Below are positions 11,507 through 60,910 of a stretch of DNA of 64,000 nt, one piece after another. Each line of letters opens with the position of its first letter. The stretch's first letter is position 1. The DNA is taken from NCBI GenBank assembly GCA_041739975.1, contig JBGSMY010000155.1:533-64532 (forward strand), read 5' to 3'. The notes beneath the pieces were generated by a model. It was given only the letters and a program-made list of their open reading frames with translations, did no database searches and had not been told where the DNA came from. Source of the DNA: Pirellulaceae bacterium (lineage in GTDB: Bacteria; Planctomycetota; Planctomycetia; Pirellulales; Pirellulaceae). Position numbers and translations under genes: made by a program.

Positions 11507-11903
11507 CCACAGCGTGATGGCGTTAGTTTTGGTCCGCCTTAAATTGATTTGCAATTCTCCGGCCAATACCGCTTGGCGAAAAATTGACCAAAGCGCTCTT
11601 TTCGGATCGGCAAATCGCCTGAACATTTGCGAGTAGTCTTGGCCAGCCAATTGGAGGGCACCACGACGAACTGCAGCAATGATCAATGCGCTCAGACGGC
11701 CACAGAGAGCACCGATTTTTCCCCTCGCTTTAGGTAAAATTTAGCAGCAATTGAAAATTAATGCTGACGCCAAATTTTCTAAAAAAGTAAGCAACAATGA
11801 CATCCAGCTCACGTAAAGCTATAGCATCAGGTTGAAATCAGCCAACAACACAAAAAATCACAAGTTTTTCAGTTTTAACAATCATTTTTGGGAGGTACGG
11901 ATC

Positions 11904-27163: not shown

Positions 27164-30100
27164 GTGATCAAGAAACTATGGAATCGACTGGTACGTCCGA
27201 CAACTGCCCAAGCGGCAGCGCTGGGGACAGATGTAATTGTTACGTCAAAGCTAGCGACGTCCCAATCGTTGCCGGCACCCCTACTTAAATACTTAAAGCT
27301 CGAACAACGTCGGGTATTAAATGCGGATTTTACGCTTACCGGAACCAATCTCGACCTCTTTAATTTCTCGGAAGCGATTGCTGGCAATCAGGCTCTGGCG
27401 ATTAGTGACGCGGGTTTAACCATTGATTTCACGCTCAATGATGGCACTTGGAATGGTGTGGATGCGGATGGTCTGAATATTATTCTATCTGCTGGCGACA
27501 CGGTATTGTCGGTAACCAAAGATTTTTTAACATCGTTGGGCGTTGTTAACATCAGTATTGATGGGTTTGACCTTGCCGCCATGAATGTCAGTGTGACAAA
27601 CAACACTGATCTGACGGCGCTTACGGGTTTATTAGATATAGAATCCGGCGGCAACATTACTCAAACTGGCTCGCTAGCGGTTGGTCAATCGGAGTTGACC
27701 GGGGCTTCCATTCAGCTCGACAATGCCGCGAACGACTTTGATAACGTAGCGATTGTTACCACGGGAGCTTTGACGCCAACCGACGCGCACTTGGTCGACG
27801 TTGACGATTTAACGGTCGATAGTGCCGAAGCGGTGACCAAACTCCGTTTCGAAGCTGACGGTATTGCGCTAAATGGACCGATCAGCGCGACAACGGTGTT
27901 TTTGGGCAGTACCAACGGTGTTACCCAGGCTCTTGCCGGGACGATCACAGCCGATGAGTTGATCTTACAAGGTTCCGGTGCGTTTAACCTCAATAATTCG
28001 GGCAACGATGTCAACCTCTTGGCGGCAGATGTCGCCAATAATCTGACGTACGTCGATCAAGACGATGTTACCATCGCGAGACTTACCTGCGATTTGGATA
28101 CGATAGTCGGCGTGGATGTCGGTGGGAATTTTGTTCTAAACACCTCGGCAGGCAACGGTAATATACTTCAAAACAATGACGCTGCAATTATAGTCGCCGG
28201 GACAACCGACTTAGTGGCTGGAAATGGTCAAGTCTGTTTGTTGGGCGCTGACAATGACGGCGATACCATCAACGACAATGATTTTGTGGGCAGTGTGGAT
28301 GCCAGCGGCAGCGTGGTGGAATTAGTCGACCGCAATGATTTAACGACTGGCATCATCACAGCCGTCGACGACATCTATTTACGAGCGGGTGATGGAGCGA
28401 CGGGCGCGTTGATTATCAATGACGACCTAACCACCACGGCCCTCGGTGGTCAAATCTTATTGCAAGCCGATTCTGGCGCGACACAAAGTGCGGCCAGCAT
28501 TATTACCACCAATCAATTGTTGCTCGGCAGCGCCACACTGGCTGACGCGCGGCAAGGCGATTTCATCCTCAATCGCAATAACCTTGTGGCCCAAGTGGCG
28601 GCTCAACTCGACAACAACTTTAGATTGCACAGTGTTCAGTCGCTCGATATCGCTGATTTATCCTACAACAGCGCTTGCGGAACCACGGCTGACATTTGCG
28701 GAATCGATATTGGCGAAACGGCGATTTTGCAAGTAACCGGCGATCTTACGCAAACCGCAGCGGCAATTGTAAACGGCGCGACAACACTGACGGTCACTGG
28801 CTTAGTTTGTTTAACGGGTGGTGACTGCACTGGTGACGGACTGAACGACAACGATTTTGTCGGTGCCGTTTCTGCCTCGGGTACGACGATTGAAATCGTT
28901 GATTCTAATGCGTTGACAATCGCGTCGGCGGTGGCGACTGATGATGTCTTTTTGCGTTCCGGCGACAATGGAGTTGGCGCGCTTTTGTTGACGGGTGCTG
29001 TCAACACCTCATCGCCGACAGGGCAAGTCTTGTTGCAGTCGGACAGCGGTGTGACTCAAGGAGTGGCCAGCGTTATTTCGACCAATCAGTTGATATTGGG
29101 TAGCGAAACGGTGGCCGATGCACGCCAAGGCAATTTCATACTGAACCGTGCCAATCAAATCGATCAGGTGGCGGCCCAATTAGATAATAATCTTACGTTG
29201 GTTAACGCCCGCAGTATCGAGATTGCGGACTTAGATTACAGTTCCGCTTGTGGCACAAACGCAAGTGTTACCGGAGTTGATGTGGACGGCAATTTGGCGT
29301 CTAACATTACCGGCGATATTACCCAATCGGCTTCGATACAAATAGCTGGAACGGCCGGGTTAACGGCCTCTGGTTTGGTCTGTTTGACGGGTGCTGATGA
29401 CAATGGAGATACGCTCAACGACAATGATTTCGTCGGTGCGGTGAACTCATCTGGCACGACCATTGAAATCGTCGATCGCAATGCATTGACAGTTACCACC
29501 ATATCTGCGACTGACGATATCTTTTTGCGATCTGGCGATGGCGCGGCCGGGGCGTTGACGCTCAACGGTAATTTGACGACGACCGCTCTGACCGGCCAAA
29601 TATTGTTGCAATCCGACACTGGAGTACTTCAAAATGCCGGCAGTGTAATAACGACTAATCAATTGCTACTTGGTAGCGCTACGGTAGCCGACGCTCGAGG
29701 TGGTAACTTTGTACTCAACCAAGCCAATCAAGTCGATCAATTGGCGGCACGGCTCAACAATGATTTAACGTTCACCAATGGCCGCGATTTAGAGATTGCC
29801 AGCCTCAATTATACGTCAGCTTGTGGAACCACGGCTGCCATTGCGGGAGTCAATATTGGCGGTAATCTCGCGACCAATATTACCGGCAATCTCACACAAT
29901 CGGCGGCGGTCACCGTTACTGGCACTTCCAATCTCGTGGCCAGCGGATTTGTTTGCCTGGTCGGCCCAGGTAATGACTTTACCGGTGCCGTGAGTGCCAA
30001 TGCGACAACGGTCGAAATTGTCGATATCAATGCATTGACGGTAGCGACCATCACTGCGGTCGACGACATCTTTCTCCGCAGTGGTGCGGGTGCGGCCGGA

Positions 30101-33100
30101 GCGATGACACTGACTGGAAACCTGACAACGACAGACCTCGCAGGTCAAATTCTGCTGCAATCTGACAGCGGTGTTTCTCAAAATGCCGGCAGTGTAATCA
30201 CCACGAATCAATTAGTGTTGGGTAGCGCGACCGAGGCCGATGCACGCGGCGGCAATTTTGTTCTAAATCAAACCAACCAAGTCGATAGAATCGCCGCACA
30301 ATTGAATGCGGCGCTGACATTCGTCAATGGGCGGTCGTTGCTGGTTGATTCATTGACCTACTCTTCGATTTGCGGCACGAGCGCAGCGGTTGCCGGCGTC
30401 GATATCGGTACGAATTTGATTTTAAATGTTACCGGAAATATCACACAGGTTGCAGCTGTGGTTGTTGACGGCACCAGCAACTTGACCGCAACAGGATTTA
30501 TCTGTTTGTTAGGTCCTAACAACGATTTTGTCGGCGCAGTGACGGCCTCGGGTACAACGGTTGAAATTGTTGATCTCAATGCGTTGATAATCGCCACGAT
30601 TACCGCCACGGATGACGTCTTTTTACGATCGGGAGACGGCGGCACAGGCGGATTGAGTATCAATGGAAATATCACGACCACTGCAATTGCCGGCCAAGTA
30701 CTGTTGCAATCGGATAGCGGAGTGACCCAGGCCGGTGGCAGCGTGATTACAACGAATCAGTTAATCCTGGGTAGTGCAACCGATGCCGACGCCCGTGGTG
30801 GCAATTTTATACTTACCGCAGCCAATCAGGTCGATCAAATCGCCGCTCGAATTGATGGCAATTTATCGTTTACAAATGGTCGTTCACTTGATGTGGCTGA
30901 CTTGGCTTACTCGTCCATTTGCGGAACGACAGCCGATGTTTGCGGTCTTGAAATCACGGGCAATTTAACCCTCAACATAACCGGCGATGTTACGCAATCG
31001 GCGGCTGTTATTGTGGGCGGTACATCGTCGTTAACCGCAACAGGTTTTATCTGTTTCACAGGTGGCGATTGTTCTGGAGATGGACTCAATGACAACGACT
31101 TCACAGGTGCCGTATCTGCCTCCGGAACGACCGTGGAAATAGTCGACCGCAACGCACTGGTCGTTGCGACCATAACTGCCACCAACAATATCTTCTTGCG
31201 GTCGGGTGATAATGGCAGTGGAACGCTCACACTCAACGGTAATCTGACGACCACTGCAGCGGCAGGACGGATCTTACTGCAATCCGACAGCGGCGTGACG
31301 CAAGCTGGAGTTAGTGTGATTACCACCAATGGCTTGTTACTTGGCAGCAGTTCTACCAGCGACGCCCGCACGGGTGACTTCACTTTGAACGGGGCCAACG
31401 TCGTCAATCAACTGGCCGCCCAATTAGATGATGCTCTTTCTTTCCGCAATACGTTGGCGTTAACGGTCGACAATGTTGCCCTGCTATACGCGTCGGTTTG
31501 TGGCACAAATGAATCGTTGACTGGAATCACAGCTCCCGACAAGATTCGGCTCCAAGCCAACGGTATTACGATCAACTCGCCTTTGGTGTCGCAAACGGTG
31601 TACTTGATTAGTACCAACGGTGTAACTCAGGCGGCTGGTGGTACAATCACTACGACCAATTTGATGCTAGAAGGATCGGGACTATTCAATCTCGATAATC
31701 CGCTCAACGACACCGATTTCTTGGCCGCGGATGTTATCAATGGACTGCGATATTTTGATCGCGACGATGTGACCATTGCCGTTTTGACTTGTGATGCGGA
31801 CACAATTCAGGGTGTAACCGTCGGTGGAAACTTCGTATTGGACACCTCGGCCGGCGGCGGCAATGTCACACAATTGGCCGATGCACCGATTGTGGTCACT
31901 CTGCAATCGACGATAAACGCCGGCACCGGGGTAATCTGCTTGTTGGGTGGCGATGCCGACGGCGATACGCTCAATGACAATGATTTTGTGCAACAGGTCA
32001 GTGCTTTTGGTCAAACCGTTGAACTGGTTGACCGCAATGATTTGATTGTGGGTGTAGTGACTGCAACGGATGACATACTATTGCGGGCCGGCAGTAGCGT
32101 CGCCGGACAATTGACGCTTAATGGTGCAATCACAACGACCGCCCCGGCAGGGCAAGTTTTATTGCAAGCCCGCAATGGAGTTGTTCAAAACGCAGCAGGC
32201 ATCATTACAACCAACGACTTAATTTTGGGAAGTGATAGCGATGCCACGGCTCGAGGTGGAAACTTTTCCTTGGACCAAGCCAATGTGGTAAATCGAATTG
32301 CCGGCCACGTCGACGGCACCCTTACGTTCACCAACACTCAGAATCTGCAAATTTCCTCGCTTCAGTATCAATCCATTTGCGGGACTACCGAGCTTTTGGC
32401 GGGAATCGATGTAATTAATTTGGACTTGGTAGTCCAAGGCAACATTACCGACGCGGCCGTCGCTTTGGCAACCGTAACGACGCGAGTTCAATCGATTGCT
32501 CAACTCACCGCCGAAACGGCCGCTGGACTGCGGGATCGAGATATCATTTTAGGTGAATCGGCCAATGAAGCCTTGTTTTTCACGGATCACAGCCACGCGA
32601 CGTTGGTCGCGAATGTTGCCAGCCCAGAGTTTTTAGAAGTTCAGGCTCGGAACGCCACTCTGTTTGTTGACTCGACGGTTATCCTATCCGATTCGACTCT
32701 GAACGGTACATTGTTTGTAAATGCGACTGGACATATTTTACAAACACCTTCTTTGATCTCGGCGCCCAATGCAGCGTTTGTCGCTGGGCAGTCGATACAA
32801 TTTTCGAATACCGAGTTTACCAACGTCGCGGCAGAGTCTGGAGCTAGTGCCGCCCTGATTCGATCGATCCGCGACGCGGTGACAACAATAATTATTGCGG
32901 GTAACGTTGTCGCATTAAACCCCAATATTGGTAATACGTTCACTGGGCATTTAGATAATTATTTCGATCCAAATGATTTTTCCCCAGATAACCATGACTT
33001 TGTCAATGAGAACGCGGTTGGTGTGCTGCTGTTCGATCAAACGGCGATCACGGTAACCAATGTATTTGACCCGGCCACCTTTGCGTCGGTTAATGGGATC

Positions 33101-34702
33101 ACTGCGGTCGGCGACGTCCATGTGGAAACCGACATTGGCAATATTGATATTCGCGAGGACATTATCGTATTGGATACGAACAGCAATATTACAATTGCTG
33201 CTGCGGCCAATGTCAATTTGCTCAATGGTGCTAGTCTGCGACGTTTTGATGGCGCTTTATTACAAGCGGTCGTTAACACCACAGCACCATTTTTGCAACT
33301 GACCAATCCTCGTTCATTCTTAGACGTTGCCTTTGCCGCATTTGGTGACAGCAAAGCCCAAGTTAATCCATTTATTGGCATCCAGGACTTCCAATTTGAT
33401 TTTGGCTCATTGGGCGAACAGTCATTCAATGTAATCGTGGGGTGGTTTGTCGATGTTGTTGTATTTGACGGTGTTAACGCCGCCGAACTGGCACAATTGA
33501 CTGACATCTTTCAATTATTAAATGCTAATAATTTCTTACATATTAATAATGGGCGAGATGCTGACGGGTTCGCCTTGGGAGTTGCTGGAACCGCCTCGCT
33601 CGAGAATCTAGAGCCGTTTGAATTTAGTGTCTTGGTCGATAACTCACGACTATTAAGCCAGTTTTTCTTGACGAACGATTCGCAGATCAATCTGTTCGCC
33701 AACGCGCAAAATGCGGCGACCATTCAAGATCTCAACTTCACGTTGGAATTATTGCCGACACAAGCGGGTGAGCCGTTTGCACCCGAGCCCAATGTGGAGC
33801 GACCGCAATTTTCGATTCCAGATGTCCCGGTTTCCGTTCCCACGCCGTTGTCGCCATTTACTTCGCCTTTGTTAACACCGGAAGAAGCCCCCATTGCGCT
33901 GGGCCGACAGCCCGAATCATACTATTTGATTCGTTACAGCGAAGATGACGACGGAGTTTACGAACATGAGTTCCGGTGGACTGGTGAGGAGAATCCCGAG
34001 TCCATACGGTCATTGTTGGAAGGTGCGGCACTGAGTGACGACCAACAAGACTGGGATGAAAACTCAAAGGATACGACAAACAAGATTAAGTTGGGACGAT
34101 TGCGACCCGGTATTTATTACATTTTTGAAGTGCTTGAAGGTCAAGAACTTCAACAAGCGGTCGATGAACCTATCAACCGTACTGATATCGAGAACGCCCG
34201 GCCAGCGCGTGATGCCAACAATACGGATGGCAGCAATCCTGCGAACGATAAACAAAACGTACCACCGCCATCAAACGACGGCAAATCGGGCGGCCAACCA
34301 GAATCATCCGTGACACCTCCGGTAAAAGATGGAGCCGTCGAGCCCGATAAATCCTCGGATTCACAACAAACGGCTCCAGTCGTCCTTCGATTTTCTGACC
34401 GTCAGTCAGTAACAATCGGAACGATCGATCCGTCGACGGCCATGCCATTAGTGTTGGAGCAAACGACTGTTGGCGAGACCGCCTCGCCAAGTCAATTGGA
34501 ACCAGCAGCGCGTGGTCGTTGGCTGCAAACCGCAGCCGGATCGGCCTTGGTTAGCGGACTGATGGCCGTTCAACTGGCACAACGGAACGTAGCACAAAAC
34601 TCAGAGGCCAGTGGTGCCAAATTGGCGAGTTCTGAAACCGAAAACAAAACAAATTTATTTTCTCGCGCCAGTCGCTGGTGGCGAAGAAACAAATCGGCCT
34701 AA
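27164..34702 (+). CDS. Giant (2512 aa) extracellular repeat protein, adhesin or beta-helix-like
   Basis: The GTG start lies 9 nt after GAGGA, followed by an uninterrupted 7.5-kb ORF. Internal tandem modules of 183-191 aa each carry conserved Cys (SxCGT, VCLxG), NDNDFVGAV, DD(I/V)FLRSGD, QxLLQSDSGVTQ and TNQLxLGS. Near the C-terminus there is a hydrophobic segment and a basic tail (RWWRRNK). Confidence 0.85.
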   Translation: MIKKLWNRLVRPTTAQAAALGTDVIVTSKLATSQSLPAPLLKYLKLEQRRVLNADFTLTGTNLDLFNFSEAIAGNQALAISDAGLTIDFTLNDGTWNGVDADGLNIILSAGDTVLSVTKDFLTSLGVVNISIDGFDLAAMNVSVTNNTDLTALTGLLDIESGGNITQTGSLAVGQSELTGASIQLDNAANDFDNVAIVTTGALTPTDAHLVDVDDLTVDSAEAVTKLRFEADGIALNGPISATTVFLGSTNGVTQALAGTITADELILQGSGAFNLNNSGNDVNLLAADVANNLTYVDQDDVTIARLTCDLDTIVGVDVGGNFVLNTSAGNGNILQNNDAAIIVAGTTDLVAGNGQVCLLGADNDGDTINDNDFVGSVDASGSVVELVDRNDLTTGIITAVDDIYLRAGDGATGALIINDDLTTTALGGQILLQADSGATQSAASIITTNQLLLGSATLADARQGDFILNRNNLVAQVAAQLDNNFRLHSVQSLDIADLSYNSACGTTADICGIDIGETAILQVTGDLTQTAAAIVNGATTLTVTGLVCLTGGDCTGDGLNDNDFVGAVSASGTTIEIVDSNALTIASAVATDDVFLRSGDNGVGALLLTGAVNTSSPTGQVLLQSDSGVTQGVASVISTNQLILGSETVADARQGNFILNRANQIDQVAAQLDNNLTLVNARSIEIADLDYSSACGTNASVTGVDVDGNLASNITGDITQSASIQIAGTAGLTASGLVCLTGADDNGDTLNDNDFVGAVNSSGTTIEIVDRNALTVTTISATDDIFLRSGDGAAGALTLNGNLTTTALTGQILLQSDTGVLQNAGSVITTNQLLLGSATVADARGGNFVLNQANQVDQLAARLNNDLTFTNGRDLEIASLNYTSACGTTAAIAGVNIGGNLATNITGNLTQSAAVTVTGTSNLVASGFVCLVGPGNDFTGAVSANATTVEIVDINALTVATITAVDDIFLRSGAGAAGAMTLTGNLTTTDLAGQILLQSDSGVSQNAGSVITTNQLVLGSATEADARGGNFVLNQTNQVDRIAAQLNAALTFVNGRSLLVDSLTYSSICGTSAAVAGVDIGTNLILNVTGNITQVAAVVVDGTSNLTATGFICLLGPNNDFVGAVTASGTTVEIVDLNALIIATITATDDVFLRSGDGGTGGLSINGNITTTAIAGQVLLQSDSGVTQAGGSVITTNQLILGSATDADARGGNFILTAANQVDQIAARIDGNLSFTNGRSLDVADLAYSSICGTTADVCGLEITGNLTLNITGDVTQSAAVIVGGTSSLTATGFICFTGGDCSGDGLNDNDFTGAVSASGTTVEIVDRNALVVATITATNNIFLRSGDNGSGTLTLNGNLTTTAAAGRILLQSDSGVTQAGVSVITTNGLLLGSSSTSDARTGDFTLNGANVVNQLAAQLDDALSFRNTLALTVDNVALLYASVCGTNESLTGITAPDKIRLQANGITINSPLVSQTVYLISTNGVTQAAGGTITTTNLMLEGSGLFNLDNPLNDTDFLAADVINGLRYFDRDDVTIAVLTCDADTIQGVTVGGNFVLDTSAGGGNVTQLADAPIVVTLQSTINAGTGVICLLGGDADGDTLNDNDFVQQVSAFGQTVELVDRNDLIVGVVTATDDILLRAGSSVAGQLTLNGAITTTAPAGQVLLQARNGVVQNAAGIITTNDLILGSDSDATARGGNFSLDQANVVNRIAGHVDGTLTFTNTQNLQISSLQYQSICGTTELLAGIDVINLDLVVQGNITDAAVALATVTTRVQSIAQLTAETAAGLRDRDIILGESANEALFFTDHSHATLVANVASPEFLEVQARNATLFVDSTVILSDSTLNGTLFVNATGHILQTPSLISAPNAAFVAGQSIQFSNTEFTNVAAESGASAALIRSIRDAVTTIIIAGNVVALNPNIGNTFTGHLDNYFDPNDFSPDNHDFVNENAVGVLLFDQTAITVTNVFDPATFASVNGITAVGDVHVETDIGNIDIREDIIVLDTNSNITIAAAANVNLLNGASLRRFDGALLQAVVNTTAPFLQLTNPRSFLDVAFAAFGDSKAQVNPFIGIQDFQFDFGSLGEQSFNVIVGWFVDVVVFDGVNAAELAQLTDIFQLLNANNFLHINNGRDADGFALGVAGTASLENLEPFEFSVLVDNSRLLSQFFLTNDSQINLFANAQNAATIQDLNFTLELLPTQAGEPFAPEPNVERPQFSIPDVPVSVPTPLSPFTSPLLTPEEAPIALGRQPESYYLIRYSEDDDGVYEHEFRWTGEENPESIRSLLEGAALSDDQQDWDENSKDTTNKIKLGRLRPGIYYIFEVLEGQELQQAVDEPINRTDIENARPARDANNTDGSNPANDKQNVPPPSNDGKSGGQPESSVTPPVKDGAVEPDKSSDSQQTAPVVLRFSDRQSVTIGTIDPSTAMPLVLEQTTVGETASPSQLEPAARGRWLQTAAGSALVSGLMAVQLAQRNVAQNSEASGAKLASSETENKTNLFSRASRWWRRNKSA
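28508..31324 (+). repeat. Five in-frame tandem repeat units (573, 573, 549, 549 and 573 nt) inside the giant ORF, bracketed by two 615-nt homologous modules (27893-28507 and 31595-32209)
   Basis: Unit boundaries are set by the recurring TNQLxLGS codons at 28508, 29081, 29654, 30203, 30752 and 31325, with another at 32210. By eye the units are conserved at protein level and clearly diverged at DNA level. Confidence 0.85.
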
Positions 34703-34823
34703 CGATTTTTCGATATTGCTGGGGTGGCCTTTCAGGGCGCTCGCAGCTCGTCGGAAAGCGGCCAAAAAACGAATACGATAAACACCAGAAATTAATCCGG
34801 TGGATTCCACAAGGAGTTGGACA

Positions 34824-37800
34824 GTGAATAAGTGCCCAAAATGCGGATTCAAGCTGAACGGCAAACACCGAGGCGTTAGCCAATGCCCTAAATGTCACGC
34901 CTCTCTGGCGGAAACGGAAGGAACGTTGGAAATTGGCCGAGAGCCGTTAATGTCCAGCGAAATCGAAGCGCGGGCGCTACAAGCCAGTGGCGCGGGCGCA
35001 GCAAAAGGAGAGTTTGCCGGAGGTGCTCAAAACGAACCGACCATTTTACCGGACTCCCTGTTGATTGAGGGTGGTGAATCGACCAAATCGGTGGTTGCAT
35101 TCGATCCCTCGCAAATGAAGCCGTTTGATATCGGTACGCCGGAGCTTAACGACGAGCCAACGCAGCTTCTAGAACTCGACGAACGCTCGGACGATTTTAA
35201 TCCGACCCTCGTATCATTCGAGCAAGGAGGCCAAGGACTCGTTGGTCTTGACATTCCTAACCGCGAAATCGGCGGTTTGGTGGCCAATGGCCAAGGCGTG
35301 GAGGAGTTTGACTACGAACTCGTCCGCGAGGTCGGGCGAGGAGCGACAGGTGTTGTTTATCGCGCTCGTCAAGCGTCGCTCAACCGCGACGTGGCTTTGA
35401 AAATGCTGGCCAAACAAAAAGAGGTCAAGAAGGAACAGCGAAAGACGGCGCTCAAAGAGGATGACGTCAAAAAGTTTTTGTATGAATCGCAAATTACTGC
35501 TCGCCTCGATCACCCGAATATTATCATCGTTCACGATCTGGGAAAAACCAGCAGTGACACTATTTTTTACTCGATGAAATTGCTGGAGGGGCAAGCCTGG
35601 AATCACACACTAGCCAAAAATAGCTTGCGAGAAAATCTGGAAATTTTTGATCGTGTTTGCGATGCCATGCGGTTCGCTCACCGCGAGCAAATCATCCATC
35701 GCGACTTGAAACCTGAGAATGTGCTCGTCGGTCAATTCGGCGAGGTGCAAGTTACCGACTGGGGTTTGGCGCTCGATCTTAAGAAACTAGATGGCACACT
35801 TTTTAACGCCGGCGGTACGCCATGTTACATGGCGCCGGAAATGGCGCAGCATTATCTATTGCAGACAAAACGTCGATGGCTGGCACACAAACAAGGATTG
35901 TTGGCGGAACAAGGTGTCAAACAATCCGTCGCCGAACGCCGCGCCGCGGAAGAAGAAATCAACCGCTTGGAAGCGCAAGAACGCGATTGGCAAGATGAAA
36001 TTGGGACAGCGAGTGACGTCTATGTCCTGGGAACGATTTTGTTCCACGTCGCTCAAGGCTATCCGCCTCATTTATGCTATTTATCGGAACCCATGAAATC
36101 GCGGCTGGGACCGCAGGCCAGCGAGTTCAAGAAGCAAAAAGAACTCGAAATGTCTGCTGCCCGCGAAATTGCCAATTATAAGATGCCACCGAAGGATGAC
36201 CAAATTGCCCGCGATGCGTTGCGAGAAATCGCACTCAAAGCCATGGAGCTCAAGGTCGAAGACCGTTACTCCGGCGTAGCGGCATTCCAAAAAGCAGTTC
36301 AGAATTTCCGCAACTTGATGCAGAGTATCGACTTGACCGAGCGTGGTCAAAACGAATTACGCAACGCTGCGGCCGAACCGGACTCTTACCAAAATTTTGC
36401 CAATGCCCGTTATGCTTTTGATGAAGCGATTCAATTGTGGGATGCCAATGAAAATGCCAAACTTGGTTCCGCACAAGCAACGATCGAATATGCACGGCGT
36501 GCCCGCGACAAAAGTGACTATGAACTGGGCCTTTCGTTACTAACGGAACAAGCGATAACGGCACAACCCAATCCGCAGGCCGCAGTGCAATTGCGCGACG
36601 AGATCAAATCGCTCAAACGTCGACGCGATACTCGGCAGCGAGTGTTTTGGATTGGTACATTGATGGCAGCCACGGTGATCATTGCCGCTATCCCGATTCT
36701 GGCCTGGACGACTCGATCGGTTGCTGTTGCGCAAACCGCTAAAGAAGCCGCCGAAACTGCAAAGGAAGAAGCTGAAACTAACATGGTGGCGGCCCAAAGC
36801 GCTGCAGCAAACGCGACTCAGCAGTTAAAGGATGTCGAGCCAAAATTGCAAGCTGCGGCGAAAGAACTTGATGATGCATTGGCAGCCAAGTCAGAAGCCG
36901 AAACGTTGAAGGTAAATGCCGAATTGGCCAAACAAGAAGCAGATCTGGAAGCACAGAACGCCAAGCGTGAAGCTTTGGAAGCGACACAGGCCGCGACATT
37001 GGCCCAATCCGAAGCTCAACAAGCATCGAAGAATGCCGAAGTCGCAATCGACTTGGCCAAAGACGCTGAAAAGCGCAAAGTGGAACTTGAACTGGAAAAT
37101 CGCTTGGCAGCTTGGCGCATTCAACAACAAAGTGAGGCGGCCCAATTGGGTACTTATTTGGCCAATGCTACTGGTATTGCCGGAGCATTGGAAAATCTCG
37201 ACGTCCGCGTCGCCAATCGAAATATCGAACAAGTTTTCAGCTCTGAAAACATCGCAAACACGCTGAAAAATTCCTGGGAAATGCACCGCTATTATCAGCG
37301 CAGCAATCCGGCTGGCCGCGCCGTGGCCATTCCCGACGCTTCTTTCGTGATGCTGCAGACCTCACGCGATGGTGGCACCACGGTGGGGGTGACGACCGAT
37401 GGCCGGATTGGAAAATTGATCTGGGACGGGGCTGATGCAAATCTATTTCAAGAAATCCCTGACTTGCAACTGCCCTCCATTCGCGGTGTCGATTTGTCTG
37501 CTGACGGACGGTACCTCGCGATCATTCAAGATGTGGCCGAGCAAGCTAACTTGGCAGAGTCAGATCGATTGCCAATCGTCGTTGATTTAACTAACAATCA
37601 AACCTTCCGAGCCAGTCCAGAGCTGTACCAAGAGTTTCAGTTTACCTCGAAATCGATCGGCCCCAACGGAAAAGAAGTCGTTGAACGGGAACGATTTTAT
37701 TTTGGTGGTCAGTACGTGCAGATTCTCAATGCCGTTGATGGCAAGATGGAACTACTGACGGTTGATCGCCGCGTTGAAAATGGGTTGAACCTGTTCCGCT

Positions 37801-40800
37801 GTAGCATTGTACCGCTGCAGTTGTCGGATAATCGATTGATTAAAGACGAATCAAAAAATACGCGAATTGCCAAAGTACCGGGTCGCAGTTTGTCCAATCC
37901 GGCAATTCTGTCCGGGGCCGAATGTTTGGTTAGCGCCTATCAATCAATCAGCGGCAATGATTCAGAAGTCACGGTAGCGATTGCCGTTGGATACCCAACG
38001 GTGGGAGTCGAGTATGGCGTTTGTGTATTTGACGTCGGCGCCGACAATCCCGCCGATGATGAGACATTTGCCCTGCAATTGAGGAATCGTATCGCCCGCT
38101 TGGAATTGCCTCCGACACGATTGTTGCTGACAAGTGCCAAAACGAATCGAACCAATGTGAATGACGATACGTTGGCTCTGTATGTTGGTACAAGCTTGGG
38201 CAAGATCGCGCGATTTGATTGCCAACAGACGGATGGTCAACCCGGGCGAAATCTATTGATCAGCTATTATTTGCTGGGGCACCGTGATGCCGTGCGAAAC
38301 ATCTTGGTCGATGAACAAAACGAGCGATTGTACACAGCAAGCCCGCGCGAAATTGTTGTCTGGAATGCACAGTCCGGTAATAGTCTGAAACAACTCTACG
38401 GGCACGCTGATGGAATTGTCGATTTGGCACTTGCCCGACAAGGCAAATCGGTATCGCTGGTTACGGTCGCCAATGATACCGCCGACGCAGCAACCAATAG
38501 TGAAATGCGAGTCTGGGAACCGGCCGGCGCCGTTCACGATGCCGAACTCAAGATTGCTCGACCGACATTTGCGTCCAGTACTGAGCCAGATGACTTGATG
38601 ATTGCCAATGCGATGGATTTGCAACCTGGTTCCAAAGCTGTCATTGCCGCTTTGAAAAATGGCGATTGGGCCTATACGTCAGACCCCGCTAGTCAGCCAC
38701 TAAACGTCATTCCCAATCCGGCGGCCGGATTGGATATGCAAAGCAACGACTTGCGGCAAGCCCGCATGGGGTTATACGACGAGCGTTATCTTGTTCTGAT
38801 GCATGACTATAAACTTCAAGTTTGGGACTTACTCAATCGTCAACAAACCCGGGCTGAAGAATTTGAATTTACGTCCGATATCAGTGTCGAAAACACTGAT
38901 ATTGTTTACAGCGATGACCGTCAGGGAAACTTAATCGTTTCGAGTCACCCAACCAAGAAAAACTATTTATTGCAATGGCGTCGCGAGGCCGGTTCCGGTG
39001 GATACATTGCGACCGAAGTCGGACCATTTTCAAATACGAGTATCGTCGGTTTACGTCCGATCGTTTCTCCGGATGGCCAGTTTGTGGCTGTCGTCTCCAA
39101 TCGACGGATTACGTATTCGATTGATATTTTTACGAGTGAAAACTTAGCGAAGGGCGAAATTTCACAGCCGATGGCTAGTTTGTCAGGTGATAATTACTCG
39201 CAATTGCGATTTGCCAAATTTTCAAATGGCAGTAACCGGTTTGTTTTGGGCCAAGAACGGGCCATTCGCAATTTGACGCGACAAGTTTCTGCCGGATCAG
39301 AGGACGAAGTCAATCTGGCTGAGCGCACGTTGGACTTGTCCGAATTGCGATTGCAAAGCAATCAATGGGAGCAAAGATCGATTCCAGTTCCCGCCGGTTT
39401 GTTGACCAATGCTCAGGTATTGATCACCGACTGGATGGAACGAGACGGCCAGGATTGGTTTTTAGGTTTGTCGCGTTCCGCCGTCGAAAGCAACAACGAA
39501 ACGGGTACGAGCCAACTCGTAATTTGGAACGATTTGACAACAGCGGCTTCGTTGCCGGTTCCTTTTAGTCGACGACTTAATCCTCAATTCTCTTCCGACG
39601 GTACGTTGGTTCAATTCTTGAGCCAAGGACTTTTCAATCGATGGACTTGGCAATCTGATCGGGAGGGGGATGTCGAATCCATTGCCTTGACCTCTTCGAC
39701 AGTCGCCGCGACGGCACAGTTTTGGCAAGTTCTGGCAAGCGACCACATCGCCTATTTTGGTCGTGACTGGCTGGCCTGCGCGTTGCCAGTGGCTGATGGC
39801 AATATTCTCGAGAACGTTTTGGAAGTTTCACGACCCAATGACACGCGAAAGATTTGGCTATATGGTCGCCACATTGCGGCATTGCACTTAGATGGCTCGG
39901 TGACATTGGCTCAATTGGACGAACAAGGTCAATTGGCAAAACATCGACAATTGAATGGCCGTCAAAGTCAAGTTGTGGTTTCACCCGATGGGCAACAAGT
40001 GGCGGTCGTTTCAGCAGACAAACAACGAGTTTCCACGTATCGTTGGGATGATGTCTTGGCGGATCGGTTAGAACCGGTTCACAGTTGGGATCAACCGGCC
40101 GATTTGGTGACTTGGGTTCCCCAGAGCTGGACCGCTGGTGGCGCAGACGTCGCGGGACATACCCTGGCGACTATCGTTCGCAAGGATCAAACTGTGGAAC
40201 TCGCCGTCCTCGATGGGAATTTAAACCAGTGGAGTCAACCATCGACGTTAACGCTACCGCAACGTAACGACTGGAGTACTCTGCGTGATGTGATCTGTGC
40301 CGCTCAAACCGGTCAATATTTTGCTGTGATTGACGATCGCAACCACCTTAGTTTGTGGCGCCGATTTGTGACCCCGCAACAAGCGGTTACTTGGGTTCCA
40401 ATCGACACCACGGCGGCGATTGGCGAAAACGGCGAAGTAGTGGGGCTGGCCATTAGCGAAGTCTTGGATGATGCGGCTGCAAAGCCAACAGAAGTAGCAA
40501 CACGATTTGCCATCGCAACGCGCAACGGCAACGAAATTCGCACCGATTTGTACCTGTTTCAATACAGCAATCAAGAATTGATTGCCAACGATTCACAACG
40601 GCAATTCGAGTTGACTCGCGTCTTGACTCTGGATGCTTATCAACAAAAGGATCGCGATATCGCAATGCCACCGCAGTTTTCTGGCGATGGAAAGACTTTG
40701 CAAACGGCGAATCAAGATGAGTTAACGCAATGGCTGACCAAAGGTTGGGAAATTGAAAAACGGCAAGTTGGTGAAGCCGACCGAGTATTTTTCTCAGCCG

Positions 40801-40868
40801 AAGAATTGCAAGAAATGCTCAATCGAAAATTGCTAAATAGTTCCGAAGTTGAGCAATTGCAAAAATAA
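34824..40868 (+). CDS. Giant Ser/Thr protein kinase: N-terminal zinc ribbon, Hanks-type kinase, TM helix, coiled coil, WD40/beta-propeller region
   Basis: The GTG at 34824 lies 7 nt after AAGGAG (the ORF opens at 34800). Recognised elements in order: CPKCG...CPKCH; kinase motifs GRGATGVVY, VALKML, HRDLKPENVLV, DWGLA and GTPCYMAPE; TM helix VFWIGTLMAATVIIAAIPILAW; Ala/Glu/Lys/Gln-rich coiled coil; WD40-like GHRDAV...VWNA and GHADGI...VWEP. Confidence 0.9.
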   Translation: MNKCPKCGFKLNGKHRGVSQCPKCHASLAETEGTLEIGREPLMSSEIEARALQASGAGAAKGEFAGGAQNEPTILPDSLLIEGGESTKSVVAFDPSQMKPFDIGTPELNDEPTQLLELDERSDDFNPTLVSFEQGGQGLVGLDIPNREIGGLVANGQGVEEFDYELVREVGRGATGVVYRARQASLNRDVALKMLAKQKEVKKEQRKTALKEDDVKKFLYESQITARLDHPNIIIVHDLGKTSSDTIFYSMKLLEGQAWNHTLAKNSLRENLEIFDRVCDAMRFAHREQIIHRDLKPENVLVGQFGEVQVTDWGLALDLKKLDGTLFNAGGTPCYMAPEMAQHYLLQTKRRWLAHKQGLLAEQGVKQSVAERRAAEEEINRLEAQERDWQDEIGTASDVYVLGTILFHVAQGYPPHLCYLSEPMKSRLGPQASEFKKQKELEMSAAREIANYKMPPKDDQIARDALREIALKAMELKVEDRYSGVAAFQKAVQNFRNLMQSIDLTERGQNELRNAAAEPDSYQNFANARYAFDEAIQLWDANENAKLGSAQATIEYARRARDKSDYELGLSLLTEQAITAQPNPQAAVQLRDEIKSLKRRRDTRQRVFWIGTLMAATVIIAAIPILAWTTRSVAVAQTAKEAAETAKEEAETNMVAAQSAAANATQQLKDVEPKLQAAAKELDDALAAKSEAETLKVNAELAKQEADLEAQNAKREALEATQAATLAQSEAQQASKNAEVAIDLAKDAEKRKVELELENRLAAWRIQQQSEAAQLGTYLANATGIAGALENLDVRVANRNIEQVFSSENIANTLKNSWEMHRYYQRSNPAGRAVAIPDASFVMLQTSRDGGTTVGVTTDGRIGKLIWDGADANLFQEIPDLQLPSIRGVDLSADGRYLAIIQDVAEQANLAESDRLPIVVDLTNNQTFRASPELYQEFQFTSKSIGPNGKEVVERERFYFGGQYVQILNAVDGKMELLTVDRRVENGLNLFRCSIVPLQLSDNRLIKDESKNTRIAKVPGRSLSNPAILSGAECLVSAYQSISGNDSEVTVAIAVGYPTVGVEYGVCVFDVGADNPADDETFALQLRNRIARLELPPTRLLLTSAKTNRTNVNDDTLALYVGTSLGKIARFDCQQTDGQPGRNLLISYYLLGHRDAVRNILVDEQNERLYTASPREIVVWNAQSGNSLKQLYGHADGIVDLALARQGKSVSLVTVANDTADAATNSEMRVWEPAGAVHDAELKIARPTFASSTEPDDLMIANAMDLQPGSKAVIAALKNGDWAYTSDPASQPLNVIPNPAAGLDMQSNDLRQARMGLYDERYLVLMHDYKLQVWDLLNRQQTRAEEFEFTSDISVENTDIVYSDDRQGNLIVSSHPTKKNYLLQWRREAGSGGYIATEVGPFSNTSIVGLRPIVSPDGQFVAVVSNRRITYSIDIFTSENLAKGEISQPMASLSGDNYSQLRFAKFSNGSNRFVLGQERAIRNLTRQVSAGSEDEVNLAERTLDLSELRLQSNQWEQRSIPVPAGLLTNAQVLITDWMERDGQDWFLGLSRSAVESNNETGTSQLVIWNDLTTAASLPVPFSRRLNPQFSSDGTLVQFLSQGLFNRWTWQSDREGDVESIALTSSTVAATAQFWQVLASDHIAYFGRDWLACALPVADGNILENVLEVSRPNDTRKIWLYGRHIAALHLDGSVTLAQLDEQGQLAKHRQLNGRQSQVVVSPDGQQVAVVSADKQRVSTYRWDDVLADRLEPVHSWDQPADLVTWVPQSWTAGGADVAGHTLATIVRKDQTVELAVLDGNLNQWSQPSTLTLPQRNDWSTLRDVICAAQTGQYFAVIDDRNHLSLWRRFVTPQQAVTWVPIDTTAAIGENGEVVGLAISEVLDDAAAKPTEVATRFAIATRNGNEIRTDLYLFQYSNQELIANDSQRQFELTRVLTLDAYQQKDRDIAMPPQFSGDGKTLQTANQDELTQWLTKGWEIEKRQVGEADRVFFSAEELQEMLNRKLLNSSEVEQLQK

Positions 40869-59885: not shown

Positions 59886-60308
59886 TTAGGTTTGCCCACT
59901 CAGATTATTTTATCTGGTTACCAAATTTCTTATTTGCCCGACCACACTGCGAAGCTTCGCCAGCCGTTCATTCCCCGTCTTCCTTTTTCGGACGACCTAG
60001 AAATGGACATCTACGAATTGAACGCAAAATCACCAACTTACCGCCGATGGGGGCGCTGCATTCGAAACAAAACCGCCAAGTTCAACGATTTGATCGCTGA
60101 AAATAGTATAGTTGCCCAAGTCCAAAACCGTCAAATTTCTCCTTTAGAATCACCCGAAACCACTCGCTTTTGGCGCAAAACAGCCGCCTTTCGAACTTTT
60201 CGTCAGGATTTTCGTTCGGAATCATTAAAAATGTTTACTCGACCGAGTATAAACGGTACTGAGACAACTGTCGGAAGGTTAGTTTCAATTTTTACACGGA
60301 GAATTTTT

Positions 60309-60749
60309 ATGAAAAGTCCAATTTCAAGGCTGCTTATCGGCAGCGTTATGGCGGCTGCCATCGGAGGAATTGTCCTCACCGGTTGCCAGCAAAGCCCGAC
60401 GGGTGCAGGCCCGGTGGCCGGCAATAATTCCAAGACGAACACATCATCCGGGACCAGTGACCCCGCCAATCAGGCAAACGCTGCGACAACTCCGACCTCA
60501 GAAACCGATTCAGTGGGGGCCAATTTGGTTCTCGTTTCACTCGATGTCCCCAACATGACGTGAGGGGGCTGTGCCGCTTCGGTCCGAAGCGATTTGCAAA
60601 AAATTGAAACTGCCACTGAAATCAATACCGATATCGGCAAGAGACAATGCAGCTTTAAAGTTGCACCAGGTGTCGATTGGGAATCAAAGTTAGTCGAATT
60701 TGCGAAAACAAATACGCATATTGCAGAGTATACGATTCGAAAAAATTGA
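60309..60749 (+). CDS. Candidate selenoprotein: lipoprotein with an HMA/MerP-type heavy-metal-binding domain, in-frame TGA (codon 85, 60561-60563) at the first Cys of the MTCxxC motif
   Basis: The ATG at 60309 lies 6 nt after GGAGA. Lipoprotein signal MKSPISRLLIGSVMAAAIGGIVLTGC, then a low-complexity linker. The sequence then reads LVLVSLDVPNMT-[TGA]-GGCAASVRSDLQKIETATEINTDIGKRQCSFKVAPGVDWESKLVEFAKTNTHIAEYTIRKN-stop, which aligns along its length with MerP/CopZ (VPGMTCxxCxxxV...). No in-frame start exists after the TGA. A terminator follows the second stop. The conventional reading would be a 84-aa ORF ending at 60563. Confidence 0.6.
60575..60591 (+). promoter_or_regulatory. SECIS-like hairpin (CGCUUC-GGUCC-GAAGCG) starting 11 nt 3' of the in-frame UGA
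   Basis: A 17-nt perfect hairpin with a 6-7 bp stem and a loop containing GGUC. TGC at 60572-74 and GCA at 60596-98 could extend a lower stem. Spacing and size match the minimal E. coli fdhF-type bacterial SECIS as I recall it. Confidence 0.5.
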
Positions 60750-60782
60750 ATCGAATAATCTGAATTTAACGTGTTGTATACG

Positions 60783-60819
60783 AAACCCCACGATGTCTCC
60801 GACAGGTCGTGGGGTTTTT
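60783..60819 (+). terminator. Rho-independent terminator after the extended (read-through) ORF
   Basis: AAACCCCACGA-(13 nt)-TCGTGGGGTTT is followed by TT, giving a T5 run at 60815-60819. It lies 34 nt after the stop at 60749. Confidence 0.75.
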
Positions 60820-60910
60820 CTTGGTCGAACGATAATCTGCAAGTGCTGCCCCACACATTCTATTCCCGGATAGTTTTCGAGGAACGAATAAAGACAATCG
60901 TCCCACTTTT

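What the first reader, a model, noticed from the sequence alone, without database searches (positions are those of the whole stretch)
60309..60819. In-frame TGA at the first Cys of an HMA/MerP MTCxxC motif, with a SECIS-like hairpin 11 nt downstream: candidate selenocysteine metal-binding lipoprotein
Seen in the sequence:
- A well-formed lipoprotein gene (GGAGA RBS, ATG at 60309, signal peptide ending LTGC) runs into TGA at 60561-60563 directly after ...LVSLDVPNMT.
- The same frame continues without a stop for 61 more codons: GGCAASVRSDLQKIETATEINTDIGKRQCSFKVAPGVDWESKLVEFAKTNTHIAEYTIRKN.
- Joined across the TGA, the sequence reads VPNMT-X-GGC-AASV..., which is the canonical beta-alpha-beta-beta-alpha-beta HMA domain (compare MerP VPGMTCAACPITV). 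X falls exactly on the first metal-ligand Cys.
- The downstream part has no start codon of its own.
- The only good intrinsic terminator (60783-60819) follows the second stop, not the TGA.
- A perfect 17-nt hairpin, CGCUUC-GGUCC-GAAGCG, occupies 60575-60591, so it starts 11 nt after the UGA.
From established knowledge: bacterial Sec insertion needs a SelB-binding hairpin just 3' of the UGA. As I recall, the minimal E. coli fdhF element is a ~17-nt stem-loop placed 11 nt from the UGA with a GGUC-type apical loop. Sec commonly replaces the first Cys of CxxC redox or metal motifs.
Inference: this gene encodes a UxxC HMA lipoprotein that ordinary gene callers would truncate to 84 aa. I cannot tell from here whether Sec-containing MerP/CopZ-like lipoproteins are already catalogued.
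Basis: partly seen in the sequence, partly recalled or inferred. Interest (0 to 1): 0.85.

Follow-up and report, generated by a model that had tools for sequence, protein, structure and literature searches.

The report
Selenocysteine metal-binding lipoprotein gene, planctomycete
The apparent premature stop codon is almost certainly a selenocysteine codon in a small exported metal-binding (HMA) lipoprotein; the family is widespread in planctomycete bacteria, and I found it neither in the current selenoprotein catalogue nor among NCBI's family models.

Summary
Window 60309-60749 encodes a 146-residue lipoprotein precursor. Its HMA domain carries an in-frame TGA (60561-60563) at the first ligand Cys of the M-x-C-x-x-C motif.

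- I recovered 55 further copies of this domain from planctomycete genomes and metagenomes. All 55 have TGA at that codon.
- The reading frame downstream is under purifying selection (pN 0.22-0.45, pS 0.58-0.87).
- Homologues with Cys at this position exist, with the same lipoprotein architecture.
- The hairpin at 60575-60591 starts exactly 11 nt after the TGA in every copy.
- RNAalifold predicts this hairpin as the only consensus structure. It is 99.6% paired across 46 distinct sequences, and three of its six pairs show compensatory double changes that alter the encoded peptide (AASVRSD, AASVRGD, ADSVRVD, ATSVRGD).
- It meets all four criteria of the published bacterial SECIS model.
- Four of five non-Sec homologues lack it.

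TGA also ends other genes in the window and this gene itself, so the recoding is local.

Not shown: selA/B/C/D in this genome (none lie in the window), selenium incorporation, and which metal is bound.

Sec at the first Cys of an HMA motif is already known from P-type ATPases and the UxxU metal-binding proteins. This family matches no NCBIfam model and is absent from the 2026 catalogue. It is a new member of a known kind.

The parts
60298..60302 (+). Shine-Dalgarno-like GGAGA, 6 nt before the ATG
   Evidence: Read directly from the sequence.
60309..60386 (+). Start codon, lipoprotein signal peptide (residues 1-25) and the lipobox Cys26 (L-T-G-C)
   Evidence: Translation. The orthologues with a complete N-terminus in the fetched loci have an equivalent n-region, h-region and lipobox (AIGC, IAGC, FMGC, SVGC, LAGC, LLGC).
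60387..60521 (+). Low-complexity Ser/Thr/Ala/Pro/Asn linker (residues 27-71)
   Evidence: Translation. Its length and sequence are not conserved among orthologues.
60522..60746 (+). HMA domain (residues 72-146), beta-alpha-beta-beta-alpha-beta
   Evidence: Pfam PF00403 at 33 bits against a gathering score of 24.8. An AlphaFold2 model of the Cys homologue P0012 has domain pLDDT of about 90. Its best PDB match is MerP 1osd, TM 0.75, followed by other HMA domains.
60561..60563 (+). In-frame TGA, proposed Sec85, at the first ligand position of M-T-U-G-G-C
   Evidence: TGA at the homologous codon in all 55 other copies. Cys at this position in homologues P0003, P0004, P0007, P0012, P0022 and P0023.
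60564..60574 (+). 11-nt spacer between the TGA and the hairpin; it contains the second ligand Cys88 (TGT, 60570-60572)
   Evidence: The spacer is 11 nt with no indels in all 46 distinct sequences.
60575..60591 (+). SECIS hairpin: 6-bp stem CGCUUC/GAAGCG with loop GGUCC. It encodes the peptide A-A-S-V-R-S-D at the start of helix alpha-1
   Evidence: RNAalifold predicts exactly this helix. It is 99.6% paired, three of six pairs have double changes, and no shuffle of 500 reaches the covariation score. Energy is -9.7 kcal/mol. It meets the bSECIS criteria quoted.
60648..60650 (+). Third Cys of the family (Cys114, motif C-[STKR]-F), at the N-terminal end of strand beta-3
   Evidence: Invariant in alignments A1 and A4. 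In the model of P0012 it is C123, at the start of beta-3 (residues 122-128). Not universal: the second domain of L018 and the fragments P0009, P0021, P0025 and P0030 have Ser or Ala here.
60747..60749 (+). True stop codon of the gene, also TGA
60783..60819 (+). Intrinsic-terminator-like hairpin (CCCCACGA / TCGTGGGG) followed by a T run
   Evidence: Read from the sequence. Part of it is found by the consensus scan.

Best explanation
Window 60309-60749 is one gene for a 146-residue selenoprotein precursor.

Proposed mechanism:
1. When the ribosome reaches UGA 60561-60563, the hairpin 11 nt downstream (60575-60591) acts as a bacterial SECIS. Its conserved G-U in the apical loop is the expected contact for SelB.
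2. The hairpin recruits SelB-GTP carrying Sec-tRNA(Sec). Selenocysteine is inserted and translation continues to the real stop at 60747.
3. The product has a lipoprotein signal peptide. It is therefore exported, lipidated at Cys26 and tethered by a flexible linker on the periplasmic side of the envelope.
4. There its HMA domain presents a selenolate-thiolate pair (U85-G-G-C88), probably together with the nearly invariant Cys114, to bind a soft metal ion such as Cu(I) or Hg(II).

Shown here:
- Conservation of the UGA.
- Cys-containing homologues.
- Purifying selection across and beyond the UGA.
- A conserved, covarying hairpin.
- The HMA fold.
- The lipoprotein signal.

Inferred:
- That SelB and the Sec machinery exist in this genome.
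- Lipidation and localisation.
- That the site binds metal rather than acting in redox chemistry. I put metal binding at about 0.6.
- Which metal is bound.
For: UGA conservation:
- TGA sits at the homologous codon in all 17 genome loci.
- It occurs twice in the tandem protein of L018.
- It is present in all 36 metagenome loci. Those were retrieved with a peptide pattern from the C-terminus, [EK][YFL]A[KET]TN[TVS]H[LI][AK], which does not overlap the TGA or the hairpin.

Sec/Cys pairing:
- Six full-length homologues with the same signal peptide, linker and HMA layout have Cys at this position.

Translation continues past the TGA:
- pN 0.22-0.45 against pS 0.58-0.87 downstream of the TGA.
- The frame stays open in all copies.

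The hairpin:
- RNAalifold finds only this helix in the 81-nt region.
- 99.6% of cells are paired. With the 3' partner columns slid by 1 to 3 positions as a control, only 31-50% are paired.
- Compensatory changes occur at three pairs: GC to AU, CG to AU, and UA 24 versus CG 22. A fourth pair shows a UA to UG wobble.
- The peptide after the CxxC changes to follow the RNA, while Cys forms vary freely there.
- The hairpin is lost in L021, L024, L061 and L063, which have 2-3 of 6 pairs.

Fit to the published bSECIS model (PMC13188914):
- Loop of 5 nt with G-U at positions 2-3.
- Stem of 6 bp.
- 17 nt from the UGA to the loop.
- Energy of -9.7 or -8.1 kcal/mol, depending on the loop variant.

No global reassignment of UGA:
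- Three of 28 Pfam-supported genes in the window end in TGA, as does this gene itself.

Protein features:
- HMA identity and fold.
- Lipobox in orthologues.

Lineage:
- The window is Pirellulaceae-like.
- Complete selA/B/C/D sets are reported in some Planctomycetes (PMC4807772).
Against: - No selA, selB, selD or tRNA-Sec lies in the 64-kb window or in the fetched loci that were scanned for tRNA genes. The rest of the genome could not be reached.
- The single-sequence MFE fold does not choose the hairpin.
- No Rfam family matches. This is weak evidence, since bacterial SECIS elements are poorly covered there.
- No conserved neighbouring gene and no mer or cop operon supports a metal role.
- One Cys form (L019) retains a perfect hairpin, so the hairpin is not strictly exclusive to TGA forms.
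- There is no experimental evidence of any kind.
Confidence: 0.9

Rival explanations
1. It is a selenoprotein, but the U-x-x-C site is redox-active rather than metal-binding. It would cycle between a selenylsulfide and a selenol/thiol, and the protein would act in the envelope as an oxidoreductase or a sulfur/selenium relay. Cys114 would be the resolving residue.
For: - Most bacterial UxxC selenoproteins are thiol oxidoreductases (PMC13188914).
- No metal operon is nearby.
- There is a nearly invariant third Cys.
- One homologue sits next to an Aminotran_5 (cysteine-desulfurase-type) gene (L063).
Against: - The fold and motif are those of HMA metal-binding domains. The best structural match is MerP, followed by copper-ATPase and chaperone domains.
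- No thioredoxin-like fold is present.
Confidence: 0.2
2. The UGA is read through or recoded as something other than Sec, for example Trp, Cys or Gly from a near-cognate tRNA or an altered genetic code.
For: - One metagenome pipeline called the L018 gene with TGA as Trp.
- Sec machinery was not seen.
Against: - TGA ends other genes in the window and this gene itself.
- The recoded codon is exactly the ligand Cys, and Cys homologues exist.
- A covarying hairpin that fits the SelB-type SECIS model lies at a fixed 11-nt distance.
Confidence: 0.04
3. It is a pseudogene: a TGC or TGT Cys codon mutated to TGA, leaving a truncated 84-residue product.
For: Automatic gene calling truncates it at the TGA (P0001).
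Against: - All 56 copies, from diverged lineages, have the TGA.
- There are no frameshifts or further stops downstream.
- The downstream part is under purifying selection.
Confidence: 0.01
4. Two separate products are made: an 84-residue lipopeptide, and a 51-residue protein started at the in-frame TTG at 60594.
For: An in-frame TTG exists. Many database entries are such fragments.
Against: - The fragment would lack strand beta-1 and the whole metal motif of a domain that is continuous across the TGA.
- The start codons used by gene callers differ from copy to copy.
- The stretch between the TGA and the TTG is the most conserved part of the gene.
Confidence: 0.01

Closest known systems
[quoted passage not shown] ABB15669.1)
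   Same: As I recall, the UxxC lies in the N-terminal HMA domain, at the first Cys of its metal motif; the catalogue gives only the motif 'UxxC' (PMC13188914 Table 1; PMC2398784). As a bacterial selenoprotein it is expected to have a SECIS just downstream of the UGA (general statement).
   Different: There the HMA domain is a cytoplasmic N-terminal module of a large membrane pump. Here it is a stand-alone, exported, lipid-anchored domain of about 75 residues with an extra conserved Cys.
UxxU metal-binding (seleno)protein, NF041115 ('putative mercuric reductase' of the Olavius symbiont study)
   Same: A small protein (profile length 74) that NCBIfam names a metal-binding (seleno)protein, with Sec in a UxxU motif. 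The window protein's HMA region aligns weakly to positions 6-35 of its profile.
   Different: The window protein scores 17.4 bits against a cut-off of 95. The motif is UxxC, not UxxU. It also has a lipoprotein signal and a linker.
MerT/CopZ fusion-like heavy metal transport selenoprotein, NF045683
   Same: Named by NCBIfam as a heavy-metal transport selenoprotein with a CopZ-like part.
   Different: 16.3 bits against a cut-off of 375. There is no MerT membrane part.
MerP (TIGR02052), periplasmic Hg(II)-binding protein of mer operons
   Same: Exported HMA domain. MerP is the best structural match (1osd, TM 0.75) and the best NCBIfam hit.
   Different: 24.1 bits against a cut-off of 92.55. No merT, merA or merR is nearby. 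It is a lipoprotein rather than a soluble periplasmic protein. It has Sec in place of the first Cys and a third Cys. The 'MerP selenoprotein' of the GOS study is an unrelated short peptide.
E. coli fdhF-type bacterial SECIS
   Same: A stem-loop inside the coding region with G-U in a small apical loop. The hairpin is 17 nt and starts 11 nt after the UGA. As I recall, this matches the minimal fdhF element of Liu et al. 1998 (NAR); I did not check that paper here. It meets the consensus bSECIS model.
   Different: No bulged U and no extended lower stem were detected. The stem sequence is specific to this family.

Membership tests
Bacterial selenoprotein gene (Sec-UGA plus SECIS) | In-frame UGA at a position where homologues have Cys | tested here: met
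   TGA in all 56 copies. Cys in P0003, P0004, P0007, P0012, P0022 and P0023.
Bacterial selenoprotein gene (Sec-UGA plus SECIS) | Protein-level conservation on both sides of the UGA, in one frame | tested here: met
   The HMA profile spans the UGA. pN is well below pS downstream. The conserved xPNMx motif lies upstream.
Bacterial selenoprotein gene (Sec-UGA plus SECIS) | Stem-loop meeting the bSECIS model: loop 3-9 nt, stem 4-16 bp, G in the first two loop positions, 16-37 nt from the UGA to the loop, MFE of -7.5 kcal/mol or lower | tested here: met
   Loop NGUNC, 6-bp stem, 17 nt from the UGA, -9.7 or -8.1 kcal/mol.
Bacterial selenoprotein gene (Sec-UGA plus SECIS) | The structure is supported by covariation and tied to the UGA forms | tested here: met
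   Three of six pairs have double changes and 99.6% of cells are paired. The hairpin is absent in four of five non-Sec homologues; one Cys form keeps it.
Bacterial selenoprotein gene (Sec-UGA plus SECIS) | selA, selB, selC (tRNA-Sec) and selD in the same genome | not testable with these tools
   None lies in the 64-kb window. Lineage-level support comes only from PMC4807772.
Bacterial selenoprotein gene (Sec-UGA plus SECIS) | Selenium is actually incorporated | not testable with these tools
   Needs 75Se labelling or mass spectrometry.
HMA domain (Pfam PF00403) | Profile score above the gathering threshold | tested here: met
   33 bits against 24.8. The YceI fusions score 35.4 and 26.2 bits, and the tandem protein 78 bits.
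HMA domain (Pfam PF00403) | Beta-alpha-beta-beta-alpha-beta fold with M-x-C-x-x-C in the beta-1/alpha-1 loop | tested here: met
   The model of the Cys homologue P0012 has these six elements, with domain pLDDT of about 90. The top PDB matches are HMA domains. In the window the motif reads M-T-U-G-G-C. The window protein itself could not be modelled, because the tool refuses sequences containing a stop.
MerP (TIGR02052) | Equivalog score and mer operon context | tested here: not met
   24.1 bits against 92.55. There are no mer genes among the neighbours.
CopZ (NF033795) | Score above the cut-off; a cytoplasmic chaperone | tested here: not met
   19.6 bits against 91. The window protein has an export signal and a lipobox.
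UxxU metal-binding selenoprotein (NF041115) | Score above the cut-off; UxxU motif | tested here: not met
   17.4 bits against 95. The motif is UxxC.
Bacterial lipoprotein | Signal peptide with a lipobox [LVI][ASTVI][GAS]C | tested here: met
   L-T-G-C at residues 23-26. Equivalent lipoboxes occur in the orthologues with a complete N-terminus and in the Cys forms. Cleavage and lipidation are not testable here.

The most novel reading that the evidence does not exclude
This is the founding example of an uncatalogued family of envelope-anchored selenoproteins spread across the Planctomycetota, in which the Sec form is the dominant state. In this reading, Sec together with two Cys forms a three-coordinate Se/S/S site for capturing soft metals (Hg(II), Cu(I), Ag(I)) outside the cytoplasm. 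That would make it, as far as I know, the first secreted bacterial metallochaperone-type domain that uses selenium as the metal ligand. It could also bear on how abundant aquatic planctomycetes handle mercury or copper.
Probability: 0.3. Interest if true: 0.65.

Novelty: new member of a known kind. Interest (0 to 1): 0.5.

Why it matters
- **Annotation.** This family is systematically mis-annotated. Twenty of 28 family representatives in a 1.84-billion-protein library are 48-69 aa fragments that start just after the TGA. One was called with TGA as Trp. The window's own gene call stops at the TGA.
- **Catalogue.** It adds a well-supported family, with 56 UGA copies and a covarying SECIS, to the bacterial selenoproteome. 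The phylum is one where selenoproteins are little studied, and the protein class (HMA) is one where Sec serves as a metal ligand rather than a redox centre.
- **RNA versus protein constraint.** The element is a very compact 17-nt SECIS lying inside the first helix of the domain. The peptide there changes (S to G, A to D with S to V, A to T) to preserve RNA pairing. This gives a clean natural case of an RNA constraint overriding a protein constraint, and a small portable element to test in reporters.
- **Limits.** It is not a new mechanism, and Sec in HMA motifs is already known. It is a solid addition rather than a surprise.

Tried and rejected
- **Single-sequence folding of 60555-60620.** It prefers another structure and is no better than shuffles. 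The support for the hairpin comes from the comparisons, not from energy.
- **Rfam.** No hit at gathering score over the whole window, and only noise at E up to 10 around the site.
- **tRNA-Sec.** None in the window or in L001-L017.
- **Sec machinery in the window.** Pfam scans of 34 window ORFs found only housekeeping genes.
- **Reaching the rest of the genome.**
  - An exact 49-nt search of genome contigs found nothing.
  - Exact-protein look-ups of window proteins found no contig.
  - The matching protein clusters carry no names.
- **Handing in the read-through protein.** The word-indexed search with the full protein found only the truncated self-hit.
- **Alignment A1.** It was too diverse for the metagenome scan, so I used A2.
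- **Conserved gene neighbourhood.** Only synteny within sublineages was found: a DUF1501 protein, a protein with a concanavalin-like lectin domain and a weak ceramidase-N match, a HAD hydrolase, and a roughly 600-aa protein that looks like a sulfatase by eye but was not scanned. There is no shared partner and no metal operon.
- **Other selenoprotein genes.** Scans for TGA-bridged ORFs in the window and loci were too noisy to use.
- **The GOS 'MerP' selenoprotein.** It is an unrelated 33-residue read peptide.
- **Literature.** No paper in the library holds both 'selenoprotein' and 'HMA domain'. Supplementary Table S9 of PMC4807772 lists no HMA selenoprotein.
Full report
**1. What is in the window**

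- A GGAGA lies at 60298-60302, 6 nt before the ATG at 60309.
- The N-terminus MKSPISRLLIGSVMAAAIGGIVLTGC has the n-region, h-region and lipobox of a bacterial lipoprotein.
- A Ser/Thr/Ala/Pro/Asn-rich linker follows.
- The sequence then reads NLVLVSLDVPNMT, then TGA at 60561-60563.
- The frame continues as GGCAASVRSDLQKIETATEINTDIGKRQCSFKVAPGVDWESKLVEFAKTNTHIAEYTIRKN, 61 codons, up to a second TGA at 60747-60749.
- A GC-rich hairpin with a T run follows at 60783-60819.
- CGCTTC-GGTCC-GAAGCG occupies 60575-60591, starting 11 nt after the TGA.

With Cys in place of the stop, the protein hits Pfam HMA (PF00403) at 33 bits, above the gathering score of 24.8. The match runs straight across the TGA.

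Two small corrections apply. An in-frame TTG at 60594 could in principle start a 51-aa ORF. And on this one sequence the hairpin is not special by energy: the MFE fold of 60555-60620 is a different structure, with z = -0.46.

**2. Relatives: the TGA is conserved**

The word-indexed protein search found only the truncated call of this same gene (P0001). The tools refuse a protein with an internal stop, so I searched with the 61 residues after the TGA.

- In one genome per species, 17 loci encode a relative. They are Rubripirellula, Mariniblastus, Pirellulaceae, Pirellulales and other Planctomycetota MAGs.
- In all 17 the codon in front of [GSNT]-G-C-A-A-S-V-R-S-D-L is TGA, preceded by a conserved x-P-[NG]-M-x.
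- A metagenome scan used an alignment of the C-terminal part only. The search pattern, [EK][YFL]A[KET]TN[TVS]H[LI][AK], lies about 45 codons from the TGA and is blind to it. It gave 36 more loci, and all 36 have TGA at that codon.
- One further gene (L018) has two tandem domains, each with its own in-frame TGA. JGI had called it with TGA as Trp.

That makes 56 copies, and TGA in every one.

**3. Cys homologues exist**

An exhaustive HMMER search of 1.84 billion representatives gave 29 hits.
- Six are full-length lipoproteins of the same layout with Cys at the position. Examples are NMTCGVCATAVRNSL, NMLCDGCASAIREDL, NMHCGSCAASVRGAL, NMTCGGCAAVVRGDL, NMVCGGCAAAVEGDL and GMSCPACAASIRGEL.
- One has Glu there.
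- Twenty are 48-69 aa fragments that begin at a GTG, TTG or ATG just after where the TGA would be. These are the second halves of split gene calls.

This is the classical Sec/Cys pair. Among the representatives the Sec form is the commoner one.

**4. The part after the TGA is translated**

Against 17 diverged relatives, nonsynonymous differences (pN 0.22-0.45) are far below synonymous ones (pS 0.58-0.87, often saturated). No copy has a frameshift or an extra stop. This excludes a pseudogene.

TGA is not reassigned in this organism. Of 28 Pfam-supported genes in the window, 15 end in TAA, 10 in TAG and 3 in TGA. The gene's own terminator is also TGA.

**5. The hairpin is a conserved, covarying RNA structure**

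In 46 distinct 81-nt sequences there is no indel between the TGA and the hairpin.
- RNAalifold, given no hint, predicts exactly one helix: columns 36-41 paired with 47-52.
- 99.6% of the 276 cells are standard pairs. With the 3' partner columns slid by 1 to 3 positions as a control, only 31-50% are.
- Three of six pairs show changes on both sides that keep the pair: G-C to A-U twice, C-G to A-U once, and U-A in 24 sequences against C-G in 22.
- A fourth pair shows U-A to U-G in five sequences.
- No shuffle of 500 reaches the observed covariation score.

These changes are paid for at the protein level. The peptide reads AASVRSD, AASVRGD, ADSVRVD, ATSVRGD or ETSVRGA according to the stem. Third-codon positions in the loop and flanks vary freely, and the loop keeps an invariant G-U (N-G-U-N-C).

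In the non-Sec homologues this stretch of helix alpha-1 is variable. The hairpin is gone in four of five, with 2-3 of 6 positions pairable. One TGT form (L019) keeps a perfect stem, possibly a fossil of a recent Sec-to-Cys change.

**6. Fit to the SECIS definition**

The consensus bacterial model quoted in the 2026 review (PMC13188914) asks for four things:
- an apical loop of 3-9 nt on a 4-16 bp stem;
- a G in the first two loop positions, usually followed by G or U;
- 16-37 nt between the UGA and the loop;
- an MFE of -7.5 kcal/mol or lower.

Here the loop is 5 nt with G-U at positions 2-3, the stem is 6 bp, the distance is 17 nt, and the energy is -9.7 or -8.1 kcal/mol. All four are met.

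As I recall, the minimal E. coli fdhF element (Liu et al. 1998) is also a 17-nt stem-loop placed 11 nt from the UGA. I did not check that paper here.

The pattern TGA-N11-hairpin occurs once in the window, against 0.01 expected.

**7. The protein**

AlphaFold2 on the Cys homologue P0012, with six relatives as its alignment, gives a confident domain (pLDDT about 90) with the order beta-alpha-beta-beta-alpha-beta.
- Its best PDB match is MerP of Ralstonia metallidurans (1osd, TM 0.75). Copper-ATPase and chaperone HMA domains follow.
- Sequence search of the PDB agrees: CopA domains first, then MerP.
- A third Cys (C114 in the window, motif C-[STKR]-F) is invariant in both alignments. It sits at the N-terminal end of beta-3.
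- In the known ferredoxin-like topology, that end of beta-3 lies next to the end of beta-1 and the metal loop. This is my inference; no distances were measured.
- The third Cys is not universal. The second domain of L018 and four C-terminal fragments have Ser or Ala there.
- The orthologues with a complete N-terminus have a lipobox.
- In four loci the Sec-HMA domain is instead fused behind a signal peptide and a YceI domain (PF04264).

So the domain always appears to be extracytoplasmic.

**8. Context and organism**

The window carries housekeeping genes: CTP synthase, PurH, QueA, Obg, L27, LpxK, HrpA and others. Its CTP synthase is 83-88% identical to named Planctomycetota, Pirellulaceae and Mariniblastus MAG proteins.

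The neighbours of the gene are an unknown 432-aa protein, a DUF480 protein and LpxK. Across lineages no neighbour is shared, and no mer or cop genes are present. The gene looks monocistronic, with its own ribosome-binding site and terminator.

**9. What is missing**

No tRNA-Sec, selA, selB or selD lies in the window, and no tRNA-Sec in loci L001-L017. I could not reach the rest of the genome. Complete Sec machinery has been reported for some Planctomycetes, including a Rhodopirellula (PMC4807772). That is lineage-level support only. Function rests on homology alone.

**10. Comparison with what is known**

Sec in HMA-type metal motifs is catalogued in three places:
- the UxxC heavy-metal P-type ATPase;
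- the UxxU metal-binding protein NF041115 (PMC13188914 Table 1; PMC2398784);
- the NCBIfam model for a MerT/CopZ fusion selenoprotein, NF045683.

The window protein is far below the cut-off of all of these and of MerP and CopZ: 16-24 bits against cut-offs of 91-375.
- PF00403 lipoproteins are not among the 119 families of the 2026 catalogue.
- The GOS 'MerP selenoprotein' is an unrelated peptide.
- No paper in the library pairs 'selenoprotein' with 'HMA domain'.

It works like a standard bacterial selenoprotein gene and like an HMA metal-binding domain. It is not a member of any named selenoprotein family. I file it as a new member of a known kind.

**11. Verdict**

- A genuine selenocysteine codon with its SECIS: about 0.9.
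- Soft-metal binding as the function: about 0.6, with a redox or relay role as the main rival.
- Interest: 0.5. It is a well-supported, apparently uncatalogued and systematically mis-annotated selenoprotein family with an unusually clean minimal SECIS, but it is not a new principle.

Noticed in passing
L018:454-1047: A 197-residue protein with two tandem Sec-HMA domains. Each has its own in-frame TGA and its own hairpin; the second hairpin has a U-G wobble. JGI had called the gene with TGA read as Trp.
   Followed up: partly
L011:9293-10195, L012:9131-10180, L016:9161-10180, L017:2875-3861: Here the same Sec-HMA domain is fused behind a signal peptide and a YceI-like domain (PF04264), rather than behind a lipoprotein linker. 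Pfam confirmed this for L011 and L017.
   Followed up: partly
L019:951-1295: A Cys (TGT) homologue that still has a perfectly paired hairpin, CGCCUC-UGUUC-GGGGCG, at the homologous place. It may be a fossil SECIS left by a recent Sec-to-Cys change.
   Followed up: partly
L063:1883-3423: A homologue with Glu at the Sec/Cys position. Its start overlaps the end of an Aminotran_5 (cysteine-desulfurase-type) gene. This is the only hint of a sulfur/selenium-trafficking neighbour.
   Followed up: no
window 60470-60856 (- strand): A 128-aa antisense ORF over the gene groups by BLAST with antisense ORFs in 22 other loci; those of 10 more loci form a second group. This is a by-product of conservation on the sense strand, not a gene.
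   Followed up: yes
L003-L009 (record titles): Contigs labelled 'Candidatus Kuenenia' and 'uncultured Chitinophaga' carry nearly identical copies of this gene. Several share a DUF1501-type neighbour, which I take to be typical of planctomycetes. The bin labels look doubtful.
   Followed up: no
window 60747-60749: The gene ends in TGA as well, so within one mRNA UGA would be read as Sec at codon 85 and as stop at codon 147.
   Followed up: yes
window 11832-12410; 27164-34702; 34800-40868: An Hcp-like (type VI secretion, PF05638) ORF, and two giant ORFs of 2512 and 2022 residues. None was analysed further.
   Followed up: no
proteins P0005-P0030: Twenty of the 28 family representatives in the 1.84-billion-protein library are 48-69 aa C-terminal fragments that start just after the TGA. 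The family is systematically split by gene callers.
   Followed up: partly
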